Source: Escherichia coli (GTDB lineage: Bacteria > Pseudomonadota > Gammaproteobacteria > Enterobacterales > Enterobacteriaceae). From it: 64,000 nucleotides of DNA. Shown piece by piece: positions 295 to 44,101 of this stretch. Location: NCBI RefSeq assembly GCF_016026235.1, contig NZ_CP065613.1, one strand, 5' to 3'. A program made the translations under genes and the position numbers. Below the pieces are notes generated by a model that saw only the letters and a program-made list of their open reading frames with translations, was not told where the DNA came from and did no database searches. Each line of letters opens with the position of its first letter. Within the stretch, counting starts at the first letter, position 1.

Positions 295-2727
295 ATGAGT
301 GTGATTGCGCAGGCAGGGGCGAAAGGTCGTCAGCTGCATAAATTTGGTGGCAGTAGTCTGGCTGATGTGAAGTGTTATTTGCGTGTCGCGGGCATTATGG
401 CGGAGTACTCTCAGCCTGACGATATGATGGTGGTTTCTGCCGCCGGTAGCACCACTAACCAGTTGATTAACTGGTTGAAACTAAGCCAGACCGATCGTCT
501 CTCTGCGCATCAGGTTCAACAAACGCTGCGTCGCTATCAGTGCGATCTGATTAGCGGTCTGCTACCCGCTGAAGAAGCCGATAGCCTCATTAGCGCTTTT
601 GTCAGCGACCTTGAGCGCCTGGCGGCGCTGCTCGACAGCGGTATTAACGACGCAGTGTATGCGGAAGTGGTGGGCCACGGGGAAGTATGGTCGGCACGCC
701 TGATGTCTGCGGTACTTAATCAACAAGGGCTGCCAGCGGCCTGGCTTGATGCCCGCGAGTTTTTACGCGCTGAACGCGCCGCACAACCGCAGGTTGATGA
801 AGGGCTTTCTTACCCGTTGCTGCAACAGCTGCTGGTGCAACATCCGGGCAAACGTCTGGTGGTGACCGGATTTATCAGCCGCAACAACGCCGGTGAAACG
901 GTGCTGCTGGGGCGTAACGGTTCCGACTATTCCGCGACACAAATCGGTGCGCTGGCGGGTGTTTCTCGCGTAACCATCTGGAGCGACGTCGCCGGGGTAT
1001 ACAGTGCCGACCCGCGTAAAGTGAAAGATGCCTGCCTGCTGCCGTTGCTGCGTCTGGATGAGGCCAGCGAACTGGCGCGCCTGGCGGCTCCCGTTCTTCA
1101 CGCCCGTACTTTACAGCCGGTTTCTGGCAGCGAAATCGACCTGCAACTGCGCTGTAGCTACACGCCGGATCAAGGTTCCACGCGCATTGAACGCGTGCTG
1201 GCCTCCGGTACTGGTGCGCGTATTGTCACCAGCCACGATGATGTCTGTTTGATTGAGTTTCAGGTGCCCGCCAGTCAGGATTTCAAACTGGCGCATAAAG
1301 AGATCGACCAAATCCTGAAACGCGCGCAGGTACGCCCGCTGGCGGTTGGCGTACATAACGATCGCCAGTTGCTGCAATTTTGCTACACCTCAGAAGTGGC
1401 CGACAGTGCGCTGAAAATCCTCGACGAAGCGGGATTACCTGGCGAACTGCGCCTGCGTCAGGGGCTGGCGCTGGTGGCGATGGTCGGTGCAGGCGTCACC
1501 CGTAACCCGCTGCATTGCCACCGCTTCTGGCAGCAACTGAAAGGCCAGCCGGTCGAATTTACCTGGCAGTCCGATGACGGCATCAGCCTGGTGGCAGTAC
1601 TGCGCACCGGCCCGACCGAAAGCCTGATTCAGGGGCTGCATCAGTCCGTCTTCCGCGCAGAAAAACGCATCGGCCTGGTATTGTTCGGTAAGGGCAATAT
1701 CGGTTCCCGTTGGCTGGAACTGTTCGCCCGTGAGCAGAGCACGCTTTCGGCACGTACCGGCTTTGAGTTTGTGCTGGCAGGTGTGGTGGACAGCCGCCGC
1801 AGCCTGTTGAGCTATGACGGGCTGGACGCCAGCCGCGCGTTAGCCTTCTTCAACGATGAAGCGGTTGAGCAGGATGAAGAGTCGTTGTTCCTGTGGATGC
1901 GCGCCCATCCGTATGATGATTTAGTGGTGCTGGACGTTACCGCCAGCCAGCAGCTTGCTGATCAGTATCTTGATTTCGCCAGCCACGGTTTCCACGTTAT
2001 CAGCGCCAACAAACTGGCGGGAGCCAGCGACAGCAATAAATATCGCCAGATCCACGACGCCTTCGAAAAAACCGGGCGTCACTGGCTGTACAATGCCACC
2101 GTCGGTGCGGGCTTGCCGATCAACCACACCGTGCGCGATCTGATCGACAGCGGCGATACTATTTTGTCGATCAGCGGGATCTTCTCCGGCACGCTCTCCT
2201 GGCTGTTCCTGCAATTCGACGGTAGCGTGCCGTTTACCGAGCTGGTGGATCAGGCGTGGCAGCAGGGCTTAACCGAGCCTGATCCGCGTGACGACCTCTC
2301 CGGCAAAGACGTAATGCGCAAGCTGGTAATTCTGGCGCGTGAAGCGGGTTACAACATTGAACCGGACCAGGTACGTGTGGAATCGCTGGTGCCTGCTCAT
2401 TGCGAAGGCGGCAGCATCGACCATTTCTTTGAAAATGGCGATGAACTTAACGAGCAGATGGTGCAACGGCTGGAAGCGGCCCGCGAAATGGGGCTGGTGC
2501 TGCGCTACGTGGCGCGTTTCGATGCCAACGGCAAAGCGCGTGTGGGCGTGGAGGCGGTGCGTGAAGACCATCCGCTGGCATCACTGCTGCCGTGCGATAA
2601 CGTCTTTGCCATCGAAAGCCGCTGGTATCGCGACAACCCGCTGGTGATCCGTGGGCCTGGCGCGGGGCGCGACGTCACCGCCGGGGCGATTCAGTCGGAT
2701 ATCAACCGGCTGGCACAGTTGTTGTAA
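295..2727 (+). CDS. metL: Bifunctional aspartokinase II / homoserine dehydrogenase II
   Basis: 810 aa ORF, same length as K-12 MetL; starts 3 nt after the metB stop (metBL operon arrangement). Confidence 0.95.
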   Translation: MSVIAQAGAKGRQLHKFGGSSLADVKCYLRVAGIMAEYSQPDDMMVVSAAGSTTNQLINWLKLSQTDRLSAHQVQQTLRRYQCDLISGLLPAEEADSLISAFVSDLERLAALLDSGINDAVYAEVVGHGEVWSARLMSAVLNQQGLPAAWLDAREFLRAERAAQPQVDEGLSYPLLQQLLVQHPGKRLVVTGFISRNNAGETVLLGRNGSDYSATQIGALAGVSRVTIWSDVAGVYSADPRKVKDACLLPLLRLDEASELARLAAPVLHARTLQPVSGSEIDLQLRCSYTPDQGSTRIERVLASGTGARIVTSHDDVCLIEFQVPASQDFKLAHKEIDQILKRAQVRPLAVGVHNDRQLLQFCYTSEVADSALKILDEAGLPGELRLRQGLALVAMVGAGVTRNPLHCHRFWQQLKGQPVEFTWQSDDGISLVAVLRTGPTESLIQGLHQSVFRAEKRIGLVLFGKGNIGSRWLELFAREQSTLSARTGFEFVLAGVVDSRRSLLSYDGLDASRALAFFNDEAVEQDEESLFLWMRAHPYDDLVVLDVTASQQLADQYLDFASHGFHVISANKLAGASDSNKYRQIHDAFEKTGRHWLYNATVGAGLPINHTVRDLIDSGDTILSISGIFSGTLSWLFLQFDGSVPFTELVDQAWQQGLTEPDPRDDLSGKDVMRKLVILAREAGYNIEPDQVRVESLVPAHCEGGSIDHFFENGDELNEQMVQRLEAAREMGLVLRYVARFDANGKARVGVEAVREDHPLASLLPCDNVFAIESRWYRDNPLVIRGPGAGRDVTAGAIQSDINRLAQLL

Positions 2728-3003
2728 TTTCAGAAATTTAATAATGCCCGGTACTCATGTTTTCGGGTTTATGGTTTCTAATGAAATATATTGAATTATC
2801 ATAGGATTAGGCCGGATTAAGCGTTTACGACGAATCCGGCAAGAAGCAATAAGTACATGGTTAGTTTATATTTGCAGTCCGGTTTGCTTTGCATACCGGA
2901 TTTTCTTTTTCTTACCATCCTGAAGTTTTTTCATCTTCCCTGATTTTTCCTCACCATCATTGGTCATTTTTCGGTTGACGCCCTTCGGCTTTTCCTTCAT
3001 CTT

Positions 3004-3040
3004 TACATCTGGACGTCTAAACGGATAGATGTGCACAACA
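3004..3040 (+). promoter_or_regulatory. Candidate MetJ operator (met boxes) upstream of metF
   Basis: Sequence acatctggacgtctaaacggatagatgtg contains AGACGTCT-like tandem 8-mers about 40-70 bp upstream of the metF start. Confidence 0.45.
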
Positions 3041-3072
3041 CAACATATAACTACAAGCGATTGATGAGGTAA

Positions 3073-3966
<894 letters not shown>

Positions 3967-4239
3967 ATAGTGTGGCTTTTGTGAAAATCACACAGTGATC
4001 ACAAATTTTAAACAGAGCACAAAATGCTGCCTCGAAATGAGGGCGGGAAAATAAGGTTATCAGCCTTGTTTTCTCCCTCATTACTTGAAGGATATGAACC
4101 TAAAACCCTTTTTTATAAAGCATTTGTCCGAATTCGGACATAATCAAAAAGCTTAATTACGATCAATTTGATCTACATCTCTTTAACCAACAATATGTAA
4201 GATCTCAACTATCGCATCCGTGGATTAATTCAATTATAA

Positions 4240-8391: not shown

Positions 8392-9495
8392 TTATTCCCA
8401 CTCTTGCAGGAAACGCTGACCGTACTGGTCAGCTACCAGCAGTGCGGCGTAAACCTGATCTGGCGTCGCGCCGCCAGGCATGTTGTGGATGGTTTCACCT
8501 TCTGCACAAGATGCTTTTGCAACAATGCGCATTTTCGCCGGGACATCTTCTTTAATATCCAGTTGAGCGAGAGTTATTGGCAAACCTACCGCATGGCTAA
8601 GTGCAGCTACGGTTTCGATTTCCTCCACCGGCGCGTTTTCCAGTACCAGCTGCGTCAGCGTACCAAATGCCACTTTTTCACCGTGATAATAGTGATGCGC
8701 GTCCGGGATAGCGGTCAGGCCGTTATGCACCGCGTGAGCCGCCGCCAGCCCGCCGCTTTCAAAACCAACGCCGCTCAAATAGGTGTTCGCTTCAATCACG
8801 CGCTCCAGCGCCGGGGTTACTACATGCTGTTCGGCGGCAAGCATCGCTTTTTCGCCTTCTTCCAGCAGGGTGTTGTAGCACAGTTCAGCCAGTGCCAGCG
8901 CCGCCTGGGTGCACTTGCCGCCCGCCATGGTGGTCGCGCCGCTACGAGAGCAAGCACGCGCTTCAAACCAGGTTGCCAGCGCATCGCCGATACCCGCTGC
9001 TAACAGACGTGCAGGTGCGCCCGCGACGATTTTGGTGTCGACAATGACCATATTCGGGTTATTTGGCAACAGCAGATAGCGGTCAAACTCACCCTCATCG
9101 GTGTAGATAACAGACAATGCGCTGCACGGTGCATCGGTAGAGGCGATAGTCGGTGCGATCGCTACCGGAACACCCATGAAATGTGCCAGTGCTTTGGCAG
9201 TATCGAGGGTTTTTCCGCCACCGATACCGAGAATTGCGCCACACTGCGCAGTCTCCGCGATGCCACGCAGACGGTCGATCTCATTTTGCGAACATTCACC
9301 GCCAAACGGCGCAATTTCTACTACCAGTCCAGCATCTTTAAAGCTTTTCTCGACAGTGGATTGAGCAAAACCTAAAACAAATTTGTCACCTACCACTAAC
9401 CAGCGTTCTGCCAGCGGCTTCAGGTATTCGCCCAGACGATTAATCACATCAGCGCCCTGGATGTATTTACCCGGTGATTGAATAATGCGGTCCAT
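8392..9495 (-). CDS. gldA: Glycerol dehydrogenase
   Basis: ORF 8392..9534, trimmed to the ATG giving [11 protein letters not shown] and the 367 aa K-12 length; iron-containing alcohol dehydrogenase family. Confidence 0.92.
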
Positions 9496-9505
9496 AATTG
9501 CTCCT

Positions 9506-10168
9506 TTAGAGATGAGTAGTGCCAAATGCGGCATTCCAGTCGTGTTCGAACTTCTCTATAGCTGACTCTACCGCAGGGGTGTTGAGCATTTGTTGCGCTA
9601 CATCTAAGGGCAGGGTGATGGATTCACATCCTGCCAGTAAACAGTCCAGCGCCTGACGCGGCGTTTTAAAGCTGGCTGCCAGCACCATGCTTTCTGGCGC
9701 GTGCATTTCTAACAGCGCTTGCAGCTCCTGAACCGTACGAATGCCGTCTCCGCCCTGGGCATCTACGCGGTTAACATACGGAGCAACGTATTTTGCCCCT
9801 GCCAGCGCGGCCAGTAACCCTTGTGCAGCACTGTACACTGCGGTGCCAAGCGTAGTAATACCCTCTTTTTTCAGCATCTTAATGGCGGCCAGACCTTCGG
9901 AAGTCACCGGGATTTTCACCACAATGCCCAGAATGGCATCACGCAGACGCTTCGCTTCTTCCACCATCCCCTGCGCGTCGCGGCTCATAGTCTGAGCAAA
10001 CAGAATGCCCTCATCACCAATCGTTTTTTGCAGACGCGGCAGCACTTCCCAGATGGACTCCTTGCTGGCAGCGATAATGCTCGGGTTAGTTGTCACCCCG
10101 GCAATCGGGAATATGCGTGCCAGACGTTCGACTTCTGCGACGTTAGCGGTGTCCAGATACAGTTCCAT
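9506..10168 (-). CDS. fsaB: Fructose-6-phosphate aldolase 2
   Basis: 220 aa ORF ([12 protein letters not shown]...), transaldolase-like; sits between gldA and ptsA as in K-12. Confidence 0.92.
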
Positions 10169-10179
10169 GATGTTTCCTT

Positions 10180-12681
10180 TTACAGTTCCAGTTCATGTTG
10201 CAGCAGGCTGGCGATAGCGTCGGCAGAGGCGGCGTTAACCAGCGCGTTACGGAATTCTTCGTGCATGATGCGACGAGCGAGGCGCGAGAAAATGCGCATA
10301 TGCTGATCGCCCGCAGCGTGTTTGTTCAGGGTTAACATAATGATGAATTGCGCTTCATCATCGCCCCAGCGCACTGGCGCTTGCAGGCGCGCTACACTGA
10401 TGGTGGATTGCTCAATGTGTTCTGATTTGCTGTGTGGAATGGCAAAACTAAAGCCCAGACCGGTAGAGAAAACGGCCTCGCGCGCCCACAAGTCGGCTTC
10501 CAGTTTACGCGGATAGCGGCAGCGCCCTGCCAGCAGCAGGTTATCGGTCATGCCTTTGAGCACTTCTTCTTTGCTGCGCCAGTCGCTTTCCAGCGTGATG
10601 CACTCGGCGGTGACCAGTGGTGCGTCCTGTTGGGTCATGCGGAATTGCGCCAGCAGGTGTTCCACTTCCAGCGAAGTACGGCAGGCCATTGCCTGGTTGA
10701 GCAACTTGCGGCACTCACGGCTATCAAGTTGCGCCATCCGCGCTTTCGCCGCCGGAATTGATGGTGCGCTCATGCTGAGTTCATCCAGCCCTAAGCCGAC
10801 CAGCAACGGCAGCACGGAACCTTTCGCTCCCAGCTCACCGCACAGACCAATCCATTTGCCTTGGCGATGCACCGCTTGCACGGCGTAATCGAGCGCCCGC
10901 AAGAATGCCGGATTCAGGCTGTTGTAGTGACGAGTAACCTTAGCGTTATCGCGATCCACTGCCAGCAGATATTGCGTCAGGTCATTACTACCAATACTAA
11001 AGAAATCAATCTCTTCGCAGCATTGATCGATGATGAACATCACCGACGGCACTTCCAGCATGATGCCGAGCTGGATCTTCTCATCAAACGGAATGTGTTC
11101 GTTACGTAGTTGCTGTTTGGCTTCCGCCAGTTTTTCTTTCACCCATAAGATCTCTTCCATTGAAGAGATCATCGGGATCATGATTTTCAGGCTGCCGTGA
11201 GCGGAGGCACGGAGGATCGACCGTAGTTGTGTGGTAAATAACGACGCGTACTCTTCATAAATACGCACAGCGCGATAACCGAGGAACGGGTTAGCTTCTG
11301 CCGGAATGTTCAGATAATCAACGGGTTTGTCGCCGCCAATGTCCATAGTGCGCACAATAATGCTGCGTCCGTTGGCAGACTCCAGCGCCTGACAAAAAAT
11401 GTTGTACAGCTCGCTTTCGCCCGGTGCACTGGTGCGATCCATATAGAGCATTTCAGTGCGGAACAAACCAACGCCTTCCGCACCGTTGCCGAATGCGGCC
11501 TGCGCTTCCACGGAGTGAGCGATGTTAGCGGCAATTTCAATGCGGATACCGTCAGCGGTACGGGCTTGTTGGGTCAGCCAGACACGCTGTTGCTCACGCA
11601 GGGCGTCCTGTACGCGGGCTTCTTGCTGATAATAACGAGCTACGGCTTCTCCTGGCTCAACCACAATCGCCCCGGCGTTGCCGTCGATATAAATCGTTTG
11701 ATGCTGCCACGGAGTAAGGGCATCAATATCTACACCAACCAGTGTCGGAATGTTGAACGAACGGGCAAGAATTACGGTATGTGAGGTGGTGCCGCCACTT
11801 TTCAGTAACAGACCTTTGAGGTGATTTTTATCCAGTTCGAGGAACTGGCTGGGGGTTAGTTCATCAGCCATACAAATGGCGGGCTGCGTCAGTTTGCCCG
11901 GTGCCGGGAAGCGTTGCTCACCGTAGATTTGCTGAAGCAGCTGGAAGCAGACATCGCGTACGTCCAGGGCACGTTCTTGCAGGTAGCTGCTGCTGGAACG
12001 GGAAAACTCTTCACAAAAGTGATTCGCACTGGCGACAATCGCTTCGGCGCAGCTTAATCCGGCGCTGACGCCTGCCAGTAAATGTTCGTGCAGGGAAGTA
12101 TCGCCAGCCAGGGATCGGTGCGCTTCCAGAATCGCGCTGGTGGCACCGTCGCTATCCAGCAGACGAAACTCAATGTTTTTCAGTACCAGCGTCAGGCCGT
12201 TTTCCAGTGCGGATTGCTCGGCGTCAACGTCTTTGGCTGCGGGAAGATTACCCAGCGCATTGAGATCTAAAGAAGAGATCGGCGTCAGAATGCCACCTGC
12301 GCTACCGCTGCACACGGTGCGGGCGCGAATAATGCGCGGATTCAAATTAGTGAGTGAAACCGGTAGCGGCTCCAGTTCGTCAGATTTTACTTCCGCCAGC
12401 GGTGCGTCGCAGTGGGGAAATTCATCGCGCAGCCATTGGCTTAAACGCTGGTGCGCTTCCTGTTCGTCGGCCCCGGAAATCAGTAACTGGCAGTTATCGC
12501 CCGCCAGCGTGTCGGTGCCAATCAGCGCAAGGGCGCTTTTGGCGTTGCCCTTGCGGTCAGTGCGCAGGTTATGCCACTCAATTTGTGATGAAAAAGTATT
12601 ACACAGCGTTTCAACGTGGCTTGCCGGACGTGCATGTACGCCGTTAGGTAGCTCACAAATAAATTCCACAATCAGGGCCAT
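10180..12681 (-). CDS. ptsA: Multiphosphoryl transfer protein (PTS enzyme I / HPr / IIA fusion) of the frw system
   Basis: 833 aa ORF, same length as K-12 PtsA (FrwA); PEP-utilising enzyme domain. Confidence 0.92.
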
Positions 12682-12989: not shown

Positions 12990-14069
12990 ATGAATGAGTT
13001 GGTGCAGATCCTGAAAAATACCCGTCAGCATTTAATGACGGGCGTTTCACACATGATTCCCTTCGTGGTATCGGGCGGTATTTTGCTGGCGGTTTCCGTC
13101 ATGTTGTATGGCAAAGGCGCAGTGCCGGATGCCGTCGCCGATCCGAATCTGAAAAAACTGTTTGATATCGGCGTTGCAGGTTTGACGCTGATGGTGCCTT
13201 TCCTCGCCGCTTACATCGGTTACTCCATTGCAGAGCGTTCTGCGCTGGCCCCGTGCGCTATCGGTGCCTGGGTTGGTAACAGCTTTGGTGCGGGCTTCTT
13301 TGGTGCGCTGATCGCCGGGATTATTGGCGGCATCGTGGTGCATTACCTGAAGAAAATTCCGGTGCATAAAGTTCTGCGCTCGGTGATGCCTATCTTCATC
13401 ATTCCTATCATCGGCACACTGATTACCGCAGGCATCATGATGTGGGGCTTGGGCGAGCCTGTAGGGGCGTTGACCAACAGCCTGACTCAGTGGCTTCAGG
13501 GGATGCAGCAGGGCAGCATTGTTATGCTGGCGGTGATCATGGGTCTGATGCTGGCGTTCGATATGGGCGGTCCGGTTAACAAAGTGGCCTATGCCTTCAT
13601 GCTGATTTGCGTTGCTCAGGGTGTTTATACCGTGGTGGCCATTGCTGCCGTGGGTATTTGTATCCCGCCGCTGGGGATGGGGCTGGCGACGCTGATTGGT
13701 CGTAAAAATTTCTCCGCAGAAGAGCGCGAAACCGGTAAAGCGGCGCTGGTGATGGGGTGCGTTGGGGTTACTGAAGGGGCGATTCCTTTCGCCGCTGCCG
13801 ATCCGTTACGTGTAATTCCTTCCATCATGGTTGGTTCAGTTTGTGGTGCAGTAACTGCGGCGCTGGTCGGTGCGCAGTGCTATGCAGGCTGGGGTGGTCT
13901 GATTGTGCTGCCGGTGGTTGAAGGTAAGTTGGGTTATATCGCAGCAGTGGCTGTCGGGGCGGTTGTGACGGCAGTCTGCGTGAACGTGCTGAAAAGTCTG
14001 GCGCGTAAAAATGGGTCTTCGACTGATGAGAAGGAAGACGACCTGGATCTGGATTTTGAAATTAATTAA
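12990..14069 (+). CDS. frwC: PTS fructose-like permease IIC component
   Basis: 359 aa hydrophobic ORF, same length as K-12 FrwC; divergent from ptsA. Confidence 0.9.
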   Translation: MNELVQILKNTRQHLMTGVSHMIPFVVSGGILLAVSVMLYGKGAVPDAVADPNLKKLFDIGVAGLTLMVPFLAAYIGYSIAERSALAPCAIGAWVGNSFGAGFFGALIAGIIGGIVVHYLKKIPVHKVLRSVMPIFIIPIIGTLITAGIMMWGLGEPVGALTNSLTQWLQGMQQGSIVMLAVIMGLMLAFDMGGPVNKVAYAFMLICVAQGVYTVVAIAAVGICIPPLGMGLATLIGRKNFSAEERETGKAALVMGCVGVTEGAIPFAAADPLRVIPSIMVGSVCGAVTAALVGAQCYAGWGGLIVLPVVEGKLGYIAAVAVGAVVTAVCVNVLKSLARKNGSSTDEKEDDLDLDFEIN

Positions 14070-14083
14070 TTGAGGAACGAGCC

Positions 14084-14404
14084 ATGACGAAAATTATTGC
14101 AGTAACCGCATGTCCATCTGGTGTTGCCCATACCTATATGGCGGCAGAGGCGCTGGAAAGTGCCGCAAAAGCGAAAGGCTGGGAAGTGGAAGTAGAAACC
14201 CAGGGCTCGATTGGTCTGGAAAACGAACTGACTGCGGAAGATGTGGCGAGCGCCGATATGGTGATTCTGACCAAAGATATCGGCATCAAGTTTGAAGAGC
14301 GTTTTGCTGGCAAGACCATTGTGCGCGTCAACATCAGCGACGCGGTAAAACGCGCTGACGCCATTATGAGCAAAATTGAAGCTCACCTGGCGCAAACCGC
14401 TTAA
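14084..14404 (+). CDS. frwB: PTS fructose-like IIB component
   Basis: 106 aa ORF with the conserved VTACPSGVAHTYMAAE phosphocysteine motif. Confidence 0.9.
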   Translation: MTKIIAVTACPSGVAHTYMAAEALESAAKAKGWEVEVETQGSIGLENELTAEDVASADMVILTKDIGIKFEERFAGKTIVRVNISDAVKRADAIMSKIEAHLAQTA

Positions 14405-14454
14405 GTTCTTCTCCCGCTCGCAAGGGCGGGTTCGCTTTCCCACAGGAGTTCCTC

Positions 14455-16306
14455 ATGACGAATCGTATCTCTCGCCTCAAAACTGCACTGTTTGCCAATA
14501 CCCGTGAAATCTCGCTGGAGCGGGCGCTGCTTTATACCGCCAGCCATCGGCAAACCGAAGGCGAACCGGTGATATTGCGCCGGGCGAAAGCAACAGCGTA
14601 TATCCTTGAACATGTTGAAATTTCGATTCGTGATGAAGAACTGATTGCCGGTAACCGCACCGTAAAACCGCGCGCCGGGATTATGTCGCCGGAAATGGAC
14701 CCTTACTGGCTGCTGAAAGAGCTGGATCAATTCCCGACGCGTCCGCAGGACCGCTTTGCTATCAGCGAAGAAGATAAACGTATCTACCGTGAAGAGTTGT
14801 TCCCGTACTGGGAAAAACGTTCGATGAAAGATTTCATCAACGGGCAGATGACAGATGAAGTAAAAGCCGCGACCAACACGCAGATTTTCAGCATCAACCA
14901 GACGGATAAAGGCCAGGGGCACATTATTATTGATTACCCACGCCTGTTGAATCACGGTCTGGGTGAGCTGGTGGCACAGATGCAGCAACATTGTCAGCAA
15001 CAGCCGGAGAATCACTTTTATCAGGCCGCGTTGTTACTGCTGGAAGCCTCGCAGAAACACATTTTGCGTTACGCCGAACTGGCGGAAACGATGGCGGCAA
15101 ACTGCACAGATGCCCAGCGTCGCGAAGAACTGCTGACTATTGCGGAGATCTCTCGCCATAACGCCGAACATAAGCCGCAGACGTTCTGGCAGGCGTGCCA
15201 GTTATTCTGGTACATGAACATCATTCTGCAATACGAATCCAACGCCAGTTCGCTATCGCTGGGGCGCTTCGACCAGTATATGTTGCCGTTCTATCAGGCA
15301 TCATTAACCCAGGGCGAAGATCCGGCGTTCCTGAAAGAACTGCTCGAATCTTTATGGGTGAAATGCAACGACATCGTGCTGTTGCGCTCCACCAGCAGCG
15401 CGCGTTATTTCGCAGGTTTCCCGACCGGCTATACCGCACTGCTCGGCGGGTTAACCGAGAACGGACGTAGCGCGGTGAACGTGCTTTCGTTCCTTTGCCT
15501 TGATTATCAGCGATTGTCTGGAAAAAGGTCGCGATATTACCGATGGCGGCGCGCGTTATAACTTCTCCGGCGTACAGGGGATCGGTATCGCCAACCTGAG
15601 CGATTCTCTCCATGCGTTGAAAGGGATGGTTTTTGAGCAACAGCGTTTAAGTTTTGACGAATTGCTGTCGGTATTAAAAGCCAACTTTGCAACGCCAGAA
15701 GGCGAAAAAGTCCGTGCTCGCTTAATTAACCGCTTCGAGAAATACGGTAACGATATCGACGAGGTGGATAACATCAGCGCCGAACTGTTACGCCACTACT
15801 GCAAAGAAGTGGAAAAATACCAGAACCCGCGCGGCGGTTACTTCACGCCGGGATCGTATACCGTTTCTGCTCACGTCCCGTTGGGATCGGTGGTTGGCGC
15901 GACGCCAGACGGTCGTTTTGCCGGGGAACAACTGGCAGACGGCGGCTTGTCACCTATGCTGGGCCAGGACGCACAAGGGCCAACAGCGGTACTGAAGTCA
16001 GTCAGTAAGCTCGATAATACGCTGCTGTCTAACGGTACGTTGCTGAACGTGAAATTCACTCCGGCGACCCTGGAAGGTGAAGCGGGATTACGCAAACTGG
16101 CCGACTTCTTACGGGCGTTTACCCAGCTTAAGTTGCAGCATATTCAGTTTAACGTGGTGAACGCCGACACGTTGCGGGAAGCGCAACAGCGCCCACAAGA
16201 TTATGCCGGGCTGGTGGTGCGCGTTGCCGGATACAGCGCCTTCTTTGTCGAACTGTCGAAGGAGATCCAGGATGACATCATCCGCCGGACAGCGCATCAG
16301 CTGTAA
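14455..16306 (+). pseudogene. pflD: Formate acetyltransferase 2 (glycyl radical enzyme), disrupted by an internal deletion and frameshift
   Basis: Two ORFs in different frames (14455..15561 and 15500..16306) together span 1852 nt; K-12 pflD is 765 aa (2298 nt) as I recall; the C-terminal ORF keeps the glycyl radical motif RVAGYSAFF; the junction is near 15500. Confidence 0.75.
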
Positions 16307-17150
16307 CGTTGTGGAAACGCGCCGCGATGATGTGGCGCGCATTTTCAACATTCAGCGTTATTCACTGAATGACGGCGAGGGCATTCGTACGGTGGTCTTT
16401 TTTAAAGGCTGTCCGCATCTTTGCCCGTGGTGTGCTAATCCGGAGTCGATCTCCGGCAAAATCCAGACGGTACGCAGAGAGGCGAAATGTCTGCACTGTG
16501 CGAAATGTTTGCGTGATGCGGATGAATGCCCCTCCGGGGCGTTTGAACGGATTGGTCGCGATATCAGCCTTGACGCGCTGGAACGGGAAGTGATGAAAGA
16601 TGACATTTTCTTTCGCACGTCCGGCGGCGGCGTCACGCTTTCTGGCGGCGAAGTGTTAATGCAGGCGGAGTTTGCTACCCGTTTTTTACAGCGACTGCGG
16701 CTGTGGGATGTCTCATGTGCCATTGAAACTGCCGGAGACGCACCAGCCAGCAAGCTGTTACCGCTGGCGAAATTGTGCGATGAAGTGTTGTTCGATTTAA
16801 AAATTATGGACGCGACTCAGGCGCGGGATGTGGTGAAGATGAACCTGCCACGCGTACTGGAGAACCTGCGTTTGCTGGTGAGTGAGGGTGTCAACGTGAT
16901 CCCGCGTTTGCCGCTGATCCCCGGTTTCACACTCAGCCGGGAGAATATGCAGCAGGCGCTGGACGTGCTGATCCCGCTGAATATCAGGCAGATCCATCTG
17001 TTGCCGTTTCATCAGTACGGCGAGCCGAAATACCGCCTGCTGGGGAAAACATGGTCGATGAAAGAGGTGCCTGCGCCGTCGTCAGCCGATGTGACAACGA
17101 TGCGCGAAATGGCAGAACGGGCCGGATTTCAGGTTACCGTGGGAGGTTAA
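16272..17150 (+). CDS. pflC: Glycyl radical enzyme activating protein (radical SAM)
   Basis: ORF 16203..17150, trimmed to the ATG giving MTSSAGQRIS and the 292 aa K-12 length; CPHLCPWC radical-SAM cysteine motif; overlaps the pflD 3' end. Confidence 0.88.
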   Translation: MTSSAGQRISCNVVETRRDDVARIFNIQRYSLNDGEGIRTVVFFKGCPHLCPWCANPESISGKIQTVRREAKCLHCAKCLRDADECPSGAFERIGRDISLDALEREVMKDDIFFRTSGGGVTLSGGEVLMQAEFATRFLQRLRLWDVSCAIETAGDAPASKLLPLAKLCDEVLFDLKIMDATQARDVVKMNLPRVLENLRLLVSEGVNVIPRLPLIPGFTLSRENMQQALDVLIPLNIRQIHLLPFHQYGEPKYRLLGKTWSMKEVPAPSSADVTTMREMAERAGFQVTVGG

Positions 17151-17151
17151 A

Positions 17152-17493
17152 ATGGCATACCTGGTGGCAGTAACCGCCTGCGTAAGCGGCGTGGCGCATA
17201 CTTATATGGCGGCGGAACGGCTGGAAAAGTTGTGCCAGTTAGAGAAGTGGGGCGTCAGCATTGAAACTCAGGGCGCGCTGGGAACGGAGAATCGTTTAGC
17301 GGACGAGGATATCCGTCGGGCGGATGTTGCTCTGTTGATTACGGATATCGAGCTTGCCGGTGCCGAGCGATTTGAACATTGCCGCTATGTGCAATGCAGC
17401 ATCTACGCATTCCTGCGTGAGCCGCAGCGGGTAATGAGCGCGGTGCGCAAAGTGCTTTCTGCGCCGCAGCAAACCCATCTTATTCTGGAGTAG
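17152..17493 (+). CDS. frwD: PTS fructose-like IIB component 2
   Basis: 113 aa ORF, paralogous to frwB (VTACVSGVAHTYMAAE). Confidence 0.9.
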   Translation: MAYLVAVTACVSGVAHTYMAAERLEKLCQLEKWGVSIETQGALGTENRLADEDIRRADVALLITDIELAGAERFEHCRYVQCSIYAFLREPQRVMSAVRKVLSAPQQTHLILE

Positions 17494-30888: not shown

Positions 30889-32055
30889 ATGATCGAACAC
30901 TATATTCGAGGGTTTGAGGAAGAACTGCGTGAGATCCGCCATCAGATCCACGAAAACCCGGAGCTGGGATTACAAGAATTTAAAACCAGTGCTTTGGTTG
31001 CGGAAAAGCTGCGTCAGTGGGGCTATGAAGTAGAGCAAGGACTGGCGACGACGGGGATAGTGGCCACGTTAAAAGTGGGCGACGGAGAGAAAAGTATTGG
31101 CCTGCGGGCGGATATGGATGCGCTGCCGATTTATGAAAATAGTGGCAAGCCCTGGGCCAGTAAACATCCTGGTTTAATGCACGCCTGCGGGCATGACGGG
31201 CATACCACCATACTGCTGGGGGCCGCGCGTTATTTTGCCGAAACCCGCCGTTTTAACGGCACGTTACGTCTTATCTTCCAGCCTGCGGAAGAGATGATTA
31301 ATGGCGGTGAGATCATGGTTAAAGAGGGGCTTTTTGATCATTTCCCCTGCGATGTCATTTTCGGCATGCATAACATGCCCGGTCTGCCGGTGGGTAAGTT
31401 TTATTTCCAGCCAGGGGCACTGATGGCGTCAATGGATCAGTTCCATATTACAGTTCGTGGTTGTGGCGGACACGGTGCGATCCCGCACAAAGCCATCGAT
31501 CCGGTGCTAGTTGCCGCACATATCACCACCGCATTACAAAGCATTGTGTCACGCAATGTCGATCCGCTGGAAGCGGCGGTAATTACCGTCGGCAGCATTG
31601 TTGCGGGTGAGGCGGCTAACGTCATTCCTGACAGTGCTGAGATGAAAATCAGCGTCCGCTCTCTTAGCCGCGATACCCGACAACTTCTTCTGACCCGTAT
31701 TCCTGCTCTGGCACAAGCCCAGGCTGCCAGCTTTGGCGCTACGGCTGAGGTTACGCATGTTAACGGTACACCAGTATTAGTAAATGACGAGGAGATGGCG
31801 CGCTTCGCCTGGCAGGTGGCGTGTAAAACGTTTGGTGAAGATCGGGCCGAGTTTGGCATCAAGCCTCTGATGGGCAGTGAAGATTTCTCTTTCATGCTGG
31901 AAGCCCAACCCAAAGGCGGTTTCCTGTTATTCGGTAATGGCGATGTCGGGGAAGGTTCCTGCATGGTGCATAACCCGGGTTACGACTTCAACGATGCAAG
32001 TCTGGTCCCGGCAAGCAGCTACTGGGGCGCACTGGTAGAAGCCTGGCTGCAATAA
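30889..32055 (+). CDS. M20D-family amidohydrolase (hippurate hydrolase / N-acyl-amino acid amidohydrolase-like)
   Basis: 388 aa ORF with aggaa RBS; HACGHDGH metal-binding motif and overall layout typical of M20D aminoacylases; no gene sits here in K-12 as I recall. Confidence 0.85.
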   Translation: MIEHYIRGFEEELREIRHQIHENPELGLQEFKTSALVAEKLRQWGYEVEQGLATTGIVATLKVGDGEKSIGLRADMDALPIYENSGKPWASKHPGLMHACGHDGHTTILLGAARYFAETRRFNGTLRLIFQPAEEMINGGEIMVKEGLFDHFPCDVIFGMHNMPGLPVGKFYFQPGALMASMDQFHITVRGCGGHGAIPHKAIDPVLVAAHITTALQSIVSRNVDPLEAAVITVGSIVAGEAANVIPDSAEMKISVRSLSRDTRQLLLTRIPALAQAQAASFGATAEVTHVNGTPVLVNDEEMARFAWQVACKTFGEDRAEFGIKPLMGSEDFSFMLEAQPKGGFLLFGNGDVGEGSCMVHNPGYDFNDASLVPASSYWGALVEAWLQ

Positions 32056-32097
32056 ATAAAACAACACACAACAACACTTTTTGGCAAGGAACATGGA

Positions 32098-33414
32098 ATG
32101 ACGGCGATCGTAAATGAAACCGTGAGTGTGAAGAAAAAGCCCAGCGGCAGGCGGGTGATTTTTGCCTCGGCGTTTGGCAATGCGCTCGAATTTTTTGATT
32201 TTGGCGTTTACAACTTTTTTGTGGTCTATATCAGTACACTTTTCTTCCCACCCAGCGCTGATCACAATGTCGCGCTGTTACTGGCATTTGCAACGTTTGG
32301 CGTGAGTTTTTTTATGCGCCCGCTTGGTGGAATTATCGTCGGGGCCTGGGCCGATCGTTTCGGACGCAAACCCGCGATGGTGTTCACTATTGCCCTGATG
32401 AGCCTCGGCACGTTGATGATTGGCATTGCGCCGACGTATGCGACGGCGGGCTATTGGGGAACGGCAACTCTGGTACTTGCTCGTTTGATTCAGGGTGTTG
32501 CAGCAGGCGGTGAAGTTGGGGCTTCAATGTCGCTACTGGTGGAGTCAGCTCCGGCAAATCGTCGCGGTTTTTACAGCAGTTGGTCACTGGCGACTCAAGG
32601 CCTGGCAACAACTTTTGGAGGTGTTGTCGCTTTAGGTTTAAGTGCATGGCTGCCCTTTGCGACCGGTTCAGAAACCGTCATGGCTGAATGGGGCTGGCGT
32701 GTGCCGTTTTTTATTGGCGTGTTATTAGCGCCTGTCGGCTGTTGGTTGCGTTTGAGTCTGGAAAATGATGTTCCTGAGCCAGCACATAATAAGAAGGCCG
32801 CAGCCAGCGAAAGCGCCTTCTCCTTACTTATGCAACATAAAGCGACTATCGCTAACGGTATCTTGCTCGCTATTGGTAGCACGGTCGCAACCTATATCTC
32901 CCTCTTTTATTACGGTACATGGGCGGCGAAGTATTTAGGAATGAACCAAAACTATTCTCATGCAGCGATGTTACTGGCGGGCGTTATTACGTTTGTGGGT
33001 GCGCTGCTGGTGGGGATGTTGTGCGATTCGGTCGGGCGTAAAAAGCTGATTTTAATCTCCCGTGTGATGGTGCTGATCTGTAGCTGGCCGTCATTCTGGC
33101 TGTTGGTGAATTACCCAAGCCCTGGCATGTTGCTGACGGTGGTTTTCGTGATGGTCAGCTTTACCACGCTTGGCGGTGTGCCAGTGATGTTGTTGATCTC
33201 TGAACTGTTGCCGAAACGGATTCGGGCATTGGGTTTTGCGCTGGTTTATAGCATTGGTGTGGCAATCTTTGGCGGTTTTGCTCAATATTTCGCTACGCAA
33301 TCCATCGTGTTGCTGGATAGTTTGACGGCTCCGGCGTGGTATCTGGGTGGAGGCACGTTGCTGTCGATGTTGGCGTTGTTGTACGTAAAAGAACCGGCCA
33401 AAGAATTGCAGTAA
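32098..33414 (+). CDS. MFS transporter, metabolite:H+ symporter (MHS) family
   Basis: 438 aa hydrophobic ORF with the MHS signature [13 protein letters not shown] and ADRFGRK loop motif; 42 bp downstream of the amidohydrolase, same strand. Confidence 0.85.
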
Positions 33415-38915: not shown

Positions 38916-39094
38916 ACACCCCGCGCCGCTGAGAAAAAGCGAAGCGGCACTGCTCTTTAACAATTTATCAGACAATCTGTGTGGGCACTCGAAGATACGG
39001 ATTCTTAACGTCGCAAGACGAAAAATGAATACCAAGTCTCAAGAGTGAACACGTAATTCATTACGAAGTTTAATTCTTTGAGCATCAAACTTTT

Positions 39095-40635
<1,541 letters not shown>

Positions 40636-40720
40636 CCTTAAAGAAGCGTACTTTGCAGTGCTCACACAGATTGTCTGATAGAAAGTGAAAAGCAAGGCGT
40701 CTTGCGAAGCAGACTGATAC

Positions 40721-40796
40721 GTCCCCTTCGTCTAGAGGCCCAGGACACCGCCCTTTCACGGCGGTAACAGGGGTTCGAATCCCCTAGGGGACGCCA
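40721..40796 (+). tRNA. gltT: tRNA-Glu (anticodon UUC) in the 16S-23S spacer
   Basis: gtccccttcgtctagaggcccaggacaccgccctttcacggcggtaacaggggttcgaatcccctaggggacgcca; cloverleaf with TTC anticodon and CCA end. Confidence 0.95.
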
Positions 40797-40989
40797 CTTG
40801 CTGGTTTGTGAGTGAAAGTCACCTGCCTTGATATCTCAAAACTCATCTTCGGGTGATGTTTGAGATATTTGCTCTTTAAAAATCTGGATCAAGCTGAAAA
40901 TTGAAACACTGAACAACGAGAGTTGTTCGTGAGTCTCTCAAATTTTCGCAACACGATGATGAATCGCAAGAAACATCTTCGGGTTGTGA

Positions 40990-43889
<2,900 letters not shown>

Positions 43890-43981
43890 ACAACGCCGAA
43901 GATGTTTTGGCGGATGAGAGAAGATTTTCAGCCTGATACAGATTAAATCAGAACGCAGAAGCGGTCTGATAAAACAGAATT

Positions 43982-44101
43982 TGCCTGGCGGCCTTAGCGC
44001 GGTGGTCCCACCTGACCCCATGCCGAACTCAGAAGTGAAACGCCGTAGCGCCGATGGTAGTGTGGGGTCTCCCCATGCGAGAGTAGGGAACTGCCAGGCA
44101 T
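43982..44101 (+). rRNA. rrfB: 5S ribosomal RNA
   Basis: tgcctggcggccttagcgcggtggtcccacctgacccc...gggaactgccaggcat, 120 nt. Confidence 0.95.

What the first reader, a model, noticed from the sequence alone, without database searches (positions are those of the whole stretch)
14455..16306. pflD (glycyl radical enzyme) is broken by an internal deletion of about 446 bp with frameshift, while its activase pflC is intact
The pflD position holds two overlapping ORFs in different frames (14455..15561 and 15500..16306) spanning 1852 nt in total, against a 765-aa (2298-nt) gene in K-12 as I recall. The first frame ends ...NVLSFLCLD then runs into out-of-frame sequence; the second resumes at IISDCLEKGRDITDGGARYN and keeps the C-terminal glycyl radical motif RVAGYSAFF. 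The missing stretch of roughly 149 codons is where homologous glycyl radical enzymes carry the catalytic cysteine loop, so the enzyme is almost certainly inactive. The length difference is 2 mod 3, which accounts for the frame change. pflC, frwC, frwB and frwD look intact, so this looks like recent decay of one gene in a cryptic operon.
Basis: partly seen in the sequence, partly recalled or inferred. Interest (0 to 1): 0.5.

Follow-up and report, generated by a model that had tools for sequence, protein, structure and literature searches.

The report
Lineage-specific 446-bp deletion inactivating pflD
One E. coli lineage has lost 446 bp from the middle of pflD, a gene for an oxygen-sensitive sugar-degrading enzyme, which removes its catalytic centre and shifts the reading frame; this is a real but ordinary case of recent gene loss.

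Summary
Window 14455..15503 equals pflD nt 1-1049 and window 15504..16306 equals nt 1496-2298 of the intact 2298-nt (765-aa) gene. Exactly 446 bp (codons 350-499) are missing, with a blunt junction and a +2 frameshift. The lost block contains the Cys loop (GCVE, Cys419/Glu421). The Gly741 radical motif survives only in an ORF with no convincing start signal.

It is not an assembly artefact. The identical junction is in two deposited assemblies (GCA_002466675.1 and GCA_900449985.1) and in several separately assembled sequencing runs. None of 5,426 complete RefSeq E. coli genomes has it, so the lineage is rare.

The event looks recent. The pflD remnants, pflC and frwD have no substitutions relative to the nearest intact relative (FDAARGOS_943). 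All 43 other annotated CDSs fully covered by the window are intact.

Two points need correcting. The operon is no longer "cryptic", because PflD has been assigned as the 1,5-anhydromannitol-6-phosphate-cleaving glycyl radical enzyme (Ma et al., JACS 2024). pflD loss is also not unique, since independent nonsense alleles (Q356*, Q286*) exist in other E. coli.

Verdict: a genuine, ordinary pseudogene of low interest.

The parts
14455..15503 (+). pflD 5' remnant: nt 1-1049 of the 2298-nt gene (residues 1-349 and the first two bases of codon 350)
   Evidence: Identical to FDAARGOS_943 pflD nt 1-1049 with no mismatch. The product carries PF02901 PFL-like.
15503..15504 (+). Deletion junction (TTGA|TTAT): 446 bp (pflD nt 1050-1495, codons 350-499) missing between these two bases, blunt, 0 nt microhomology
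   Evidence: Left- and right-anchored comparisons sum exactly to 1852 nt. The junction 50-mer is absent from 5,426 complete genomes (control). It is present in L003-L006 and L009-L012.
15505..15561 (+). Out-of-frame tail of ORF1 (18 codons, YQRLSGKRSRYYRWRRAL) plus TAA stop
   Evidence: Translation. The same 368-aa chimeric product is called on 19 public contigs.
15504..16306 (+). pflD 3' remnant: nt 1496-2298 (residues 500-765 from 15506), including the glycyl radical motif RVAGYSA (Gly741 codon 16229..16231). It is now in a different frame from the 5' remnant and has no convincing ribosome-binding site.
   Evidence: Identical to FDAARGOS_943 pflD nt 1496-2298. PF02901 and PF01228 Gly_radical. 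In-frame start candidates and their upstream sequences are listed.
16272..17150 (+). pflC, radical-SAM activase, intact (292 aa); overlaps the end of pflD by 35 nt
   Evidence: 0 nt differences from FDAARGOS_943 pflC. PF04055 Radical_SAM and PF13353.
12990..14404 (+). frwC (12990..14069, EIIC) and frwB (14084..14404, EIIB), intact
   Evidence: Full length with no internal stops. frwC has 1 synonymous difference. frwB has 1 aa difference (K36E, window 14189).
17152..17493 (+). frwD (EIIB-like), intact
   Evidence: 0 nt differences from FDAARGOS_943.
8392..12681 (-). Divergent neighbours gldA (8392..9495), fsaB (9506..10168) and ptsA/'ptsP' (10180..12681), all intact
   Evidence: annotation.

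Best explanation
This is a genuine, recent, lineage-specific loss-of-function allele of pflD. A single 446-bp deletion inside the gene removes codons 350-499 and shifts the frame. Translation from the normal start gives PflD residues 1-350 plus 18 nonsense residues and then stops at 15559..15561. The removed block lies in the core of the enzyme and contains the Cys loop (Gly-Cys419-Val-Glu421), where the thiyl radical that attacks the substrate is formed. The surviving C-terminal part, which carries the Gly741 radical site, is out of frame with the start and has no convincing initiation signal. No active PflD can therefore be made (inferred from sequence, not measured). PflD is reported to cleave 1,5-anhydromannitol-6-phosphate to 1-deoxyfructose-6-phosphate. 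The lineage should therefore have lost anaerobic use of 1,5-anhydromannitol, while still encoding the Frw PTS components, the activase PflC and the neighbouring fsaB/gldA. The premature stop lies about 710 nt upstream of the overlapping pflC start, so it may also reduce pflC-frwD expression by polarity (inferred). The deletion arose once and is inherited clonally. Its blunt junction suggests illegitimate end-joining. A TTATCA 6-mer lies 3 nt inside the left breakpoint and exactly at the right one, which hints at imprecise slipped mispairing (inferred).
For: Exact mapping of the deletion. Intact gene length of 2298 nt / 765 aa; PDB 8YJO 'Probable dehydratase PflD' aligns 1-765. Cys419/Glu421 lie in the deleted block and align to positions 433/435 of glycerol dehydratase 1R8W, with GCVE conserved in 8ID0, 9RCO and 5I2A. 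Real allele: the exact 368-aa chimeric product is on 19 contigs and the 268-aa ORF2 on 20, including GCA_002466675.1, GCA_900449985.1 (4.56-Mb contig; protein STM02817.1) and Logan assemblies of ERR9828666, SRR8186592 and SRR30892832. The junction 50-mer is present in all of these loci, with 0-3 SNPs from the window. Rare: 0 of 5,426 complete genomes have the junction, whereas the control 50-mer hits 5,311. Recent: the remnants, pflC and frwD have 0 substitutions against FDAARGOS_943, the window is otherwise colinear with it, and 43 other CDSs are intact. The missing 446 bp is not elsewhere in the window. Function of PflD: PMC12441222 citing Ma et al., JACS 2024. Near-junction 6-mer: only 1.7% of all possible 446-nt deletions in pflD have one.
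Against: No expression, protein or growth data exist for this lineage, so inactivity is inferred from sequence. I could not read the primary paper (Ma et al. 2024), so the substrate assignment rests on a secondary summary. I could not inspect raw reads. Sample metadata were not available, so the roughly 20 carrier contigs could partly be repeat sequencing of one culture-collection strain, and the deletion could have arisen in culture and not in nature. The mechanism of the deletion cannot be determined from the product alone.
Confidence: 0.93

Rival explanations
1. Assembly or sequencing artefact: the source genome really has an intact pflD, and the 446-bp gap is a collapse or misjoin.
For: None of 5,426 complete RefSeq E. 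coli genomes has the junction. No reads were available to inspect.
Against: The identical junction occurs in a draft assembly (GCA_002466675.1), on a 4.56-Mb contig (GCA_900449985.1), and in at least three separately assembled runs from different accession series. The region is not repetitive: the deleted segment has no second copy in the window, so there is nothing for an assembler to collapse.
Confidence: 0.02
2. Selected rather than neutral loss: inactivating PflD is advantageous in some niches, for example by avoiding a costly or harmful oxygen-sensitive radical enzyme. The deletion is then one of several convergent knockouts.
For: Independent pflD null alleles exist on other allelic backgrounds with pflC intact. 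Q356* (CAA>TAA) is listed in 45 index blocks, of which 24 contigs were read. Q286* (CAG>TAG) is on 20 contigs, including GCA_005384565.1. A larger ptsP-to-pflD deletion is seen in NZ_AP027769.1.
Against: 5,392 of 5,426 complete genomes keep a place covering at least 80% of the query, and all 39 listed full-coverage hits are annotated with pflD, so the gene is overwhelmingly maintained. A few null alleles among very many sequenced E. coli are expected from mutation and drift alone. With the PTS intact, loss of PflD would if anything risk dead-end accumulation of the phosphorylated substrate (inference).
Confidence: 0.08
3. The locus still makes something functional: either a two-piece enzyme from ORF1 and ORF2, or a stand-alone glycyl radical domain protein from ORF2 that the intact PflC activates, analogous to GrcA/YfiD.
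For: ORF2 retains PF01228 Gly_radical with RVAGYSA, and the activase gene is intact. An in-frame ATG at 15626 lies 65 nt after the ORF1 stop.
Against: The Cys loop and about 148 core residues are absent from both pieces, so no catalysis of the PflD type is possible. No in-frame start has a well-spaced Shine-Dalgarno sequence. One carrier assembly has a further frameshift in ORF1. Zero divergence from the intact gene gives no sign of adaptation to a new role.
Confidence: 0.02

Closest known systems
Intact E. coli PflD (PDB 8YJO, 'Probable dehydratase PflD'), reported as the 1,5-anhydromannitol-6-phosphate-cleaving glycyl radical enzyme (Ma et al., JACS 2024)
   Same: Same gene and same genomic position (frwCB-pflDC-frwD next to ptsA-fsaB-gldA). 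The two remnants are 100% identical in nucleotide sequence to the intact gene of FDAARGOS_943.
   Different: Lacks nt 1050-1495 (residues 350-499, including Cys419/Glu421) and is frameshifted, so it is a pseudogene rather than a functional member.
Other naturally occurring pflD null alleles in E. coli (Q356* and Q286* nonsense alleles; the ptsP-pflD deletion in NZ_AP027769.1)
   Same: Inactivation of pflD alone with pflC left intact, on otherwise normal operons.
   Different: They are independent events on different allelic backgrounds (48-55 nt differences from the FDAARGOS_943 gene). They are point nonsense mutations or a larger deletion, not the 446-bp internal deletion.
YbiW, the paralogous E. 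coli glycyl radical enzyme (PDB 8ID7/8YJN), reported to act on 1,5-anhydroglucitol-6-phosphate
   Same: Same enzyme family and same chemistry class. It would remain as the related pathway elsewhere in the genome.
   Different: Different locus and a different epimeric substrate. It is not in this window, so its state in this lineage is unknown.
GrcA (YfiD), the stand-alone glycyl radical 'spare part' protein of E. coli
   Same: ORF2 is, on paper, a C-terminal glycyl radical domain fragment next to an activase gene.
   Different: GrcA is an evolved, expressed gene with its own signals (from general knowledge). ORF2 is the accidental residue of a deletion and has no convincing start signal. The resemblance is superficial.

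Membership tests
Functional PFL2/glycerol-dehydratase-like glycyl radical enzyme (PflD) | PFL-like barrel domain (PF02901) in one continuous polypeptide of about 765 aa | tested here: not met
   PF02901 is detected on both fragments, but they lie in different frames and 446 bp (148 whole codons plus parts of two more) are absent.
Functional PFL2/glycerol-dehydratase-like glycyl radical enzyme (PflD) | Catalytic Cys loop (G-C-V-E; thiyl radical Cys and general-base Glu) | tested here: not met
   Cys419/Glu421 of intact PflD lie in the deleted codons 350-499 and align to 1R8W positions 433/435. That these positions are the catalytic residues of glycerol dehydratase comes from my own knowledge of the literature.
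Functional PFL2/glycerol-dehydratase-like glycyl radical enzyme (PflD) | C-terminal glycyl radical domain (PF01228) with the RVxG motif | tested here: met
   RVAGYSAFF is present, with the Gly741 codon at 16229..16231, and PF01228 is on ORF2. However, it is not connected to a translated N-terminus.
Functional PFL2/glycerol-dehydratase-like glycyl radical enzyme (PflD) | Adjacent radical-SAM activase gene | tested here: met
   pflC 16272..17150 is intact with 0 nt differences from FDAARGOS_943, and carries PF04055.
Functional PFL2/glycerol-dehydratase-like glycyl radical enzyme (PflD) | Enzymatic activity (PflC-dependent radical formation; 1,5-anhydromannitol-6-phosphate cleavage) | not testable with these tools
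   Needs biochemistry or growth assays.
Recent unitary pseudogene (deletion allele of a conserved gene) | Orthologue intact in nearly all conspecific genomes at the same position | tested here: met
   5,392 of 5,426 complete genomes have a place covering at least 80% of the query, and all 39 listed full-coverage hits span the extra 446 bp and are annotated with pflD.
Recent unitary pseudogene (deletion allele of a conserved gene) | Disabling lesion reproducible in independent data sets | tested here: met
   The same junction is in GCA_002466675.1, GCA_900449985.1 and several Logan run assemblies.
Recent unitary pseudogene (deletion allele of a conserved gene) | Few or no secondary lesions in the remnants and flanking genes (recency) | tested here: met
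   0 substitutions in the 1852 nt of remnants, pflC and frwD against the nearest relative. One carrier assembly shows an extra A in a homopolymer, which is either an error or a second lesion.

The most novel reading that the evidence does not exclude
The retained C-terminal fragment (residues 500-765 with Gly741) is translated by reinitiation and radical-activated by the intact PflC. It would then act as a free-standing glycyl radical domain, a newly born GrcA-like 'spare part' or a radical sink that titrates the activase. That would make this a snapshot of how stand-alone glycyl radical proteins originate.
Probability: 0.02. Interest if true: 0.5.

Novelty: already known. Interest (0 to 1): 0.1.

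Why it matters
The practical value is small. The allele predicts that this lineage cannot use 1,5-anhydromannitol anaerobically, while it may still import and phosphorylate it. It offers a natural knockout for testing the recently proposed PflD pathway. Its unique junction sequence is a clean marker for tracking the lineage. Together with the independent Q356* and Q286* alleles, it shows that pflD is occasionally dispensable in E. coli. It does not reveal a new system or mechanism.

Tried and rejected
1. Assembly artefact: rejected, because the identical junction is in several independent assemblies.

2. Common E. coli allele: rejected. A junction 50-mer (25+25 nt, which cannot seed megablast unless the junction exists) found 0 of 5,426 complete genomes, while the neighbouring control 50-mer found 5,311.

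3. Metagenome scan for the exact 32-nt junction: no match, so no evidence of abundance in JGI metagenomes.

4. Microhomology-mediated deletion: the junction has 0 nt of microhomology. A TTATCA pair would predict a 443-bp deletion that keeps CGC, which is not what is seen. It occurs by chance in only 1.7% of positions, so it is kept as a hint only.

5. Translocation of the segment: the 446 bp is not elsewhere in the window.

6. Broader decay of the region: rejected, because all 43 other CDSs fully covered by the window are intact.

7. Reading the primary paper on PflD function: not held, so I relied on a review's summary.

8. Identifying the lineage from accession numbers in the literature: nothing useful.

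9. Literature search for pflD pseudogenes in E. coli: no relevant report.

Full report
OBSERVATION. The window holds two overlapping ORFs at the pflD position, in different frames: 14455..15561 (368 aa) and 15500..16306 (268 aa). A megablast of 14300..16500 against 5,426 complete E. coli genomes matched 5,417 of them. All 40 listed hits, including the 100%-identical best hit FDAARGOS_943, matched in two pieces spanning 2645-2647 bp, which is 446 bp more than the query. In FDAARGOS_943 and in a K-12-sized lab strain (AML003_par), pflD is annotated as one 2298-nt CDS of 765 aa. PDB 8YJO ('Probable dehydratase PflD') aligns over residues 1-765.

MAPPING. Base-by-base comparison shows that window 14455..15503 equals pflD nt 1-1049 and window 15504..16306 equals nt 1496-2298. 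Both stretches have no mismatch to FDAARGOS_943, and the two add up exactly to 1852 nt. The deletion is therefore exactly 446 bp (nt 1050-1495; 2 mod 3). The breakpoint is unique and blunt (..CCTTGA|TTATCAGCG..) with no microhomology.

ORF1 encodes PflD 1-350 (the junction codon GA|T still reads Asp), then 18 out-of-frame residues and TAA at 15559..15561. Authentic PflD sequence resumes at residue 500 (window 15506). The TTG 'start' of ORF2 and its first Ile are by-products of the junction. A TTATCA 6-mer lies 3 nt inside the left breakpoint and exactly at the right one. Recombination between these two copies would have given a 443-bp deletion that keeps CGC, which is not what is seen. Only 1.7% of all possible 446-nt deletions in pflD have such a 6-mer this close to both ends. 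It may therefore have guided an imprecise slippage event, but this is inference. The missing 446 bp is not elsewhere in the window.

WHAT WAS LOST. The deleted residues 350-499 include VVGCVELSIPG. When the segment is aligned alone against solved structures, Cys419/Glu421 fall on positions 433/435 of B12-independent glycerol dehydratase (1R8W). The GCVE motif is also conserved in 8ID0, 9RCO and the diol dehydratase 5I2A. To my knowledge, Cys433/Glu435 are the thiyl-radical Cys and catalytic Glu of glycerol dehydratase. The glycyl radical motif RVAGYSAFF (Gly741, window 16229..16231) and the PF01228 domain survive in ORF2. None of the in-frame start candidates (15500 TTG, 15617 TTG, 15626 ATG, 15662 TTG, 15764 GTG) has a well-spaced Shine-Dalgarno sequence. 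Even if both pieces were made, the enzyme would lack its Cys loop and about 148 core residues. Inactivity is therefore a strong inference, though it has not been measured.

REAL OR ARTEFACT. A 50-nt probe with 25 nt on each side of the junction found no match in the 5,426 complete genomes. It cannot seed a 28-mer megablast word unless the junction exists. The adjacent control 50-mer matched 5,311 genomes. A 32-nt junction pattern was absent from the metagenome contig collection.

The exact 368-aa chimeric product, whose tail exists only with this deletion, is nevertheless encoded on 19 public contigs, and the 268-aa ORF2 on 20. These include GCA_002466675.1 (NJNB01000013.1, 91.5 kb), GCA_900449985.1 (UGFA01000002.1, a 4.56-Mb contig; protein STM02817.1), and Logan assemblies of ERR9828666, SRR8186592 and SRR30892832. 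All of these loci contain the junction 50-mer and differ from the window by 0-3 SNPs over 3.8-11.1 kb.

The 4.56-Mb contig has one additional A in an A5 run at about window 14813..14817, which splits ORF1 again. This is either a homopolymer miscall or a second lesion. An artefact of one assembly is excluded. The allele is real, clonal and rare. Sample metadata were not available, so I cannot say whether the carriers are one strain sequenced many times or a circulating clone. The 3 SNPs in ERR9828666 argue for at least some diversification.

AGE AND CONTEXT. The 64-kb window is colinear with FDAARGOS_943, with 48 mismatches and six 1-nt gaps. The 446-bp gap is the only large structural difference. 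Of 44 annotated CDSs fully covered by the window, 43 are full length without internal stops, and pflD is the only broken one. pflC (16272..17150) and frwD have 0 nt differences. frwC has one synonymous change and frwB one substitution (K36E). The 1852 nt of pflD remnants have no substitution. This fits a recent event.

FUNCTION AND CONSEQUENCE. The operon is no longer cryptic. According to PMC12441222, summarising Ma et al., J. Am. Chem. Soc. 2024, 146:26187, E. coli takes up 1,5-anhydroglucitol and 1,5-anhydromannitol through PTS systems as the 6-phosphates. The glycyl radical enzymes YbiW and PflD then cleave 1,5-AG6P and 1,5-AM6P respectively to 1-deoxyfructose-6-phosphate, under strictly anaerobic conditions. 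The primary paper was not available to me. From memory of its abstract, an aldolase (here fsaB) and a dehydrogenase (here gldA) then process the product; this step is unverified.

The lineage should therefore have lost anaerobic catabolism of 1,5-anhydromannitol at its key step, while keeping transport and phosphorylation genes, the activase and the downstream genes. Two further consequences are inferred, not shown. First, the phosphorylated substrate may accumulate as a dead end. Second, pflC-frwD expression may be reduced by polarity, because translation now stops about 710 nt before the pflC start, which normally overlaps the pflD end by 35 nt.

HOW UNUSUAL. pflD loss is not unique to this lineage. 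The same protein cluster contains other truncated products. I confirmed two of them as real internal stops in otherwise full-length genes with pflC downstream. One is CAA>TAA at codon 356 (listed in 45 index blocks, 24 contigs read). The other is CAG>TAG at codon 286 (20 contigs, including GCA_005384565.1). They lie on allelic backgrounds 48-55 nt different from FDAARGOS_943. One complete genome (NZ_AP027769.1) has a larger deletion that leaves only the pflD 3' end next to ptsP. Against this, 5,392 of 5,426 complete genomes retain the region, so the gene is generally maintained. Occasional null alleles are what mutation and drift would produce in a conditionally useful gene. I found no paper describing this allele.

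VERDICT. The finding is a bona fide lineage-specific pseudogene of a known enzyme, and its sequence is already in public assemblies. It is ordinary biology and of low interest. Its uses are as a natural knockout and as a lineage marker.

Noticed in passing
L013/L014 (Logan SRR27315082, SRR28698180), gene at 1601..3898; L015/L016 (SRR24426383; GCA_005384565.1 BFLP01000026.1), gene at 1801..4098: Independent pflD null alleles occur in other E. coli backgrounds: Q356* (CAA>TAA) and Q286* (CAG>TAG). The genes are otherwise full length (2298 nt) with pflC following. A further product (P0002, 337 aa) looks like a frameshift near residue 319.
   Followed up: partly
NZ_AP027769.1 4427947..4428881 (hit H40): A complete genome in which only the 3' 42% of the query matches, with 'pyruvate formate lyase family protein' annotated next to ptsP. 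This appears to be a larger deletion removing frwC, frwB and the 5' part of pflD.
   Followed up: no
L010 (GCA_900449985.1 UGFA01000002.1), corresponding to window ~14813..14817: This carrier assembly has GGGAAAAAACG where the window and all other carriers have GGGAAAAACG. The extra A splits ORF1 into 134 + 245 aa. It is either a homopolymer sequencing error or a second frameshift accumulating in the pseudogene.
   Followed up: partly
window 30889..33414: A two-gene islet (M20 aminoacylase family protein and citrate-proton symporter) lies between sthA and fabR. It is complete in only 1,505 of 5,426 complete E. coli genomes, so it is a variable accessory segment.
   Followed up: partly
window ~39090..44100: The window runs through a complete rRNA operon (16S-tRNA-Glu-23S-5S, by colinearity with FDAARGOS_943). 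By my coordinate arithmetic, the draft contig NJNB01000013.1 ends just before it, at about window 39025. The window therefore probably comes from a contiguous assembly of this lineage that is not in the RefSeq 'complete genome' set searched.
   Followed up: no
window 14189 (frwB codon 36): FrwB carries K36E relative to the protein shared by FDAARGOS_943 and the K-12-like strain (WP_000161265.1). It is the only amino-acid change in the frw/pfl operon apart from the deletion.
   Followed up: no
window 15504..15509 and intact pflD nt 1053..1058 (L001 4208..4213): A TTATCA direct repeat lies 3 nt inside the left breakpoint and exactly at the right breakpoint. Only 1.7% of possible 446-nt deletions in pflD have such a repeat, which suggests imprecise slipped mispairing and not a fully random end-join.
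   Followed up: partly
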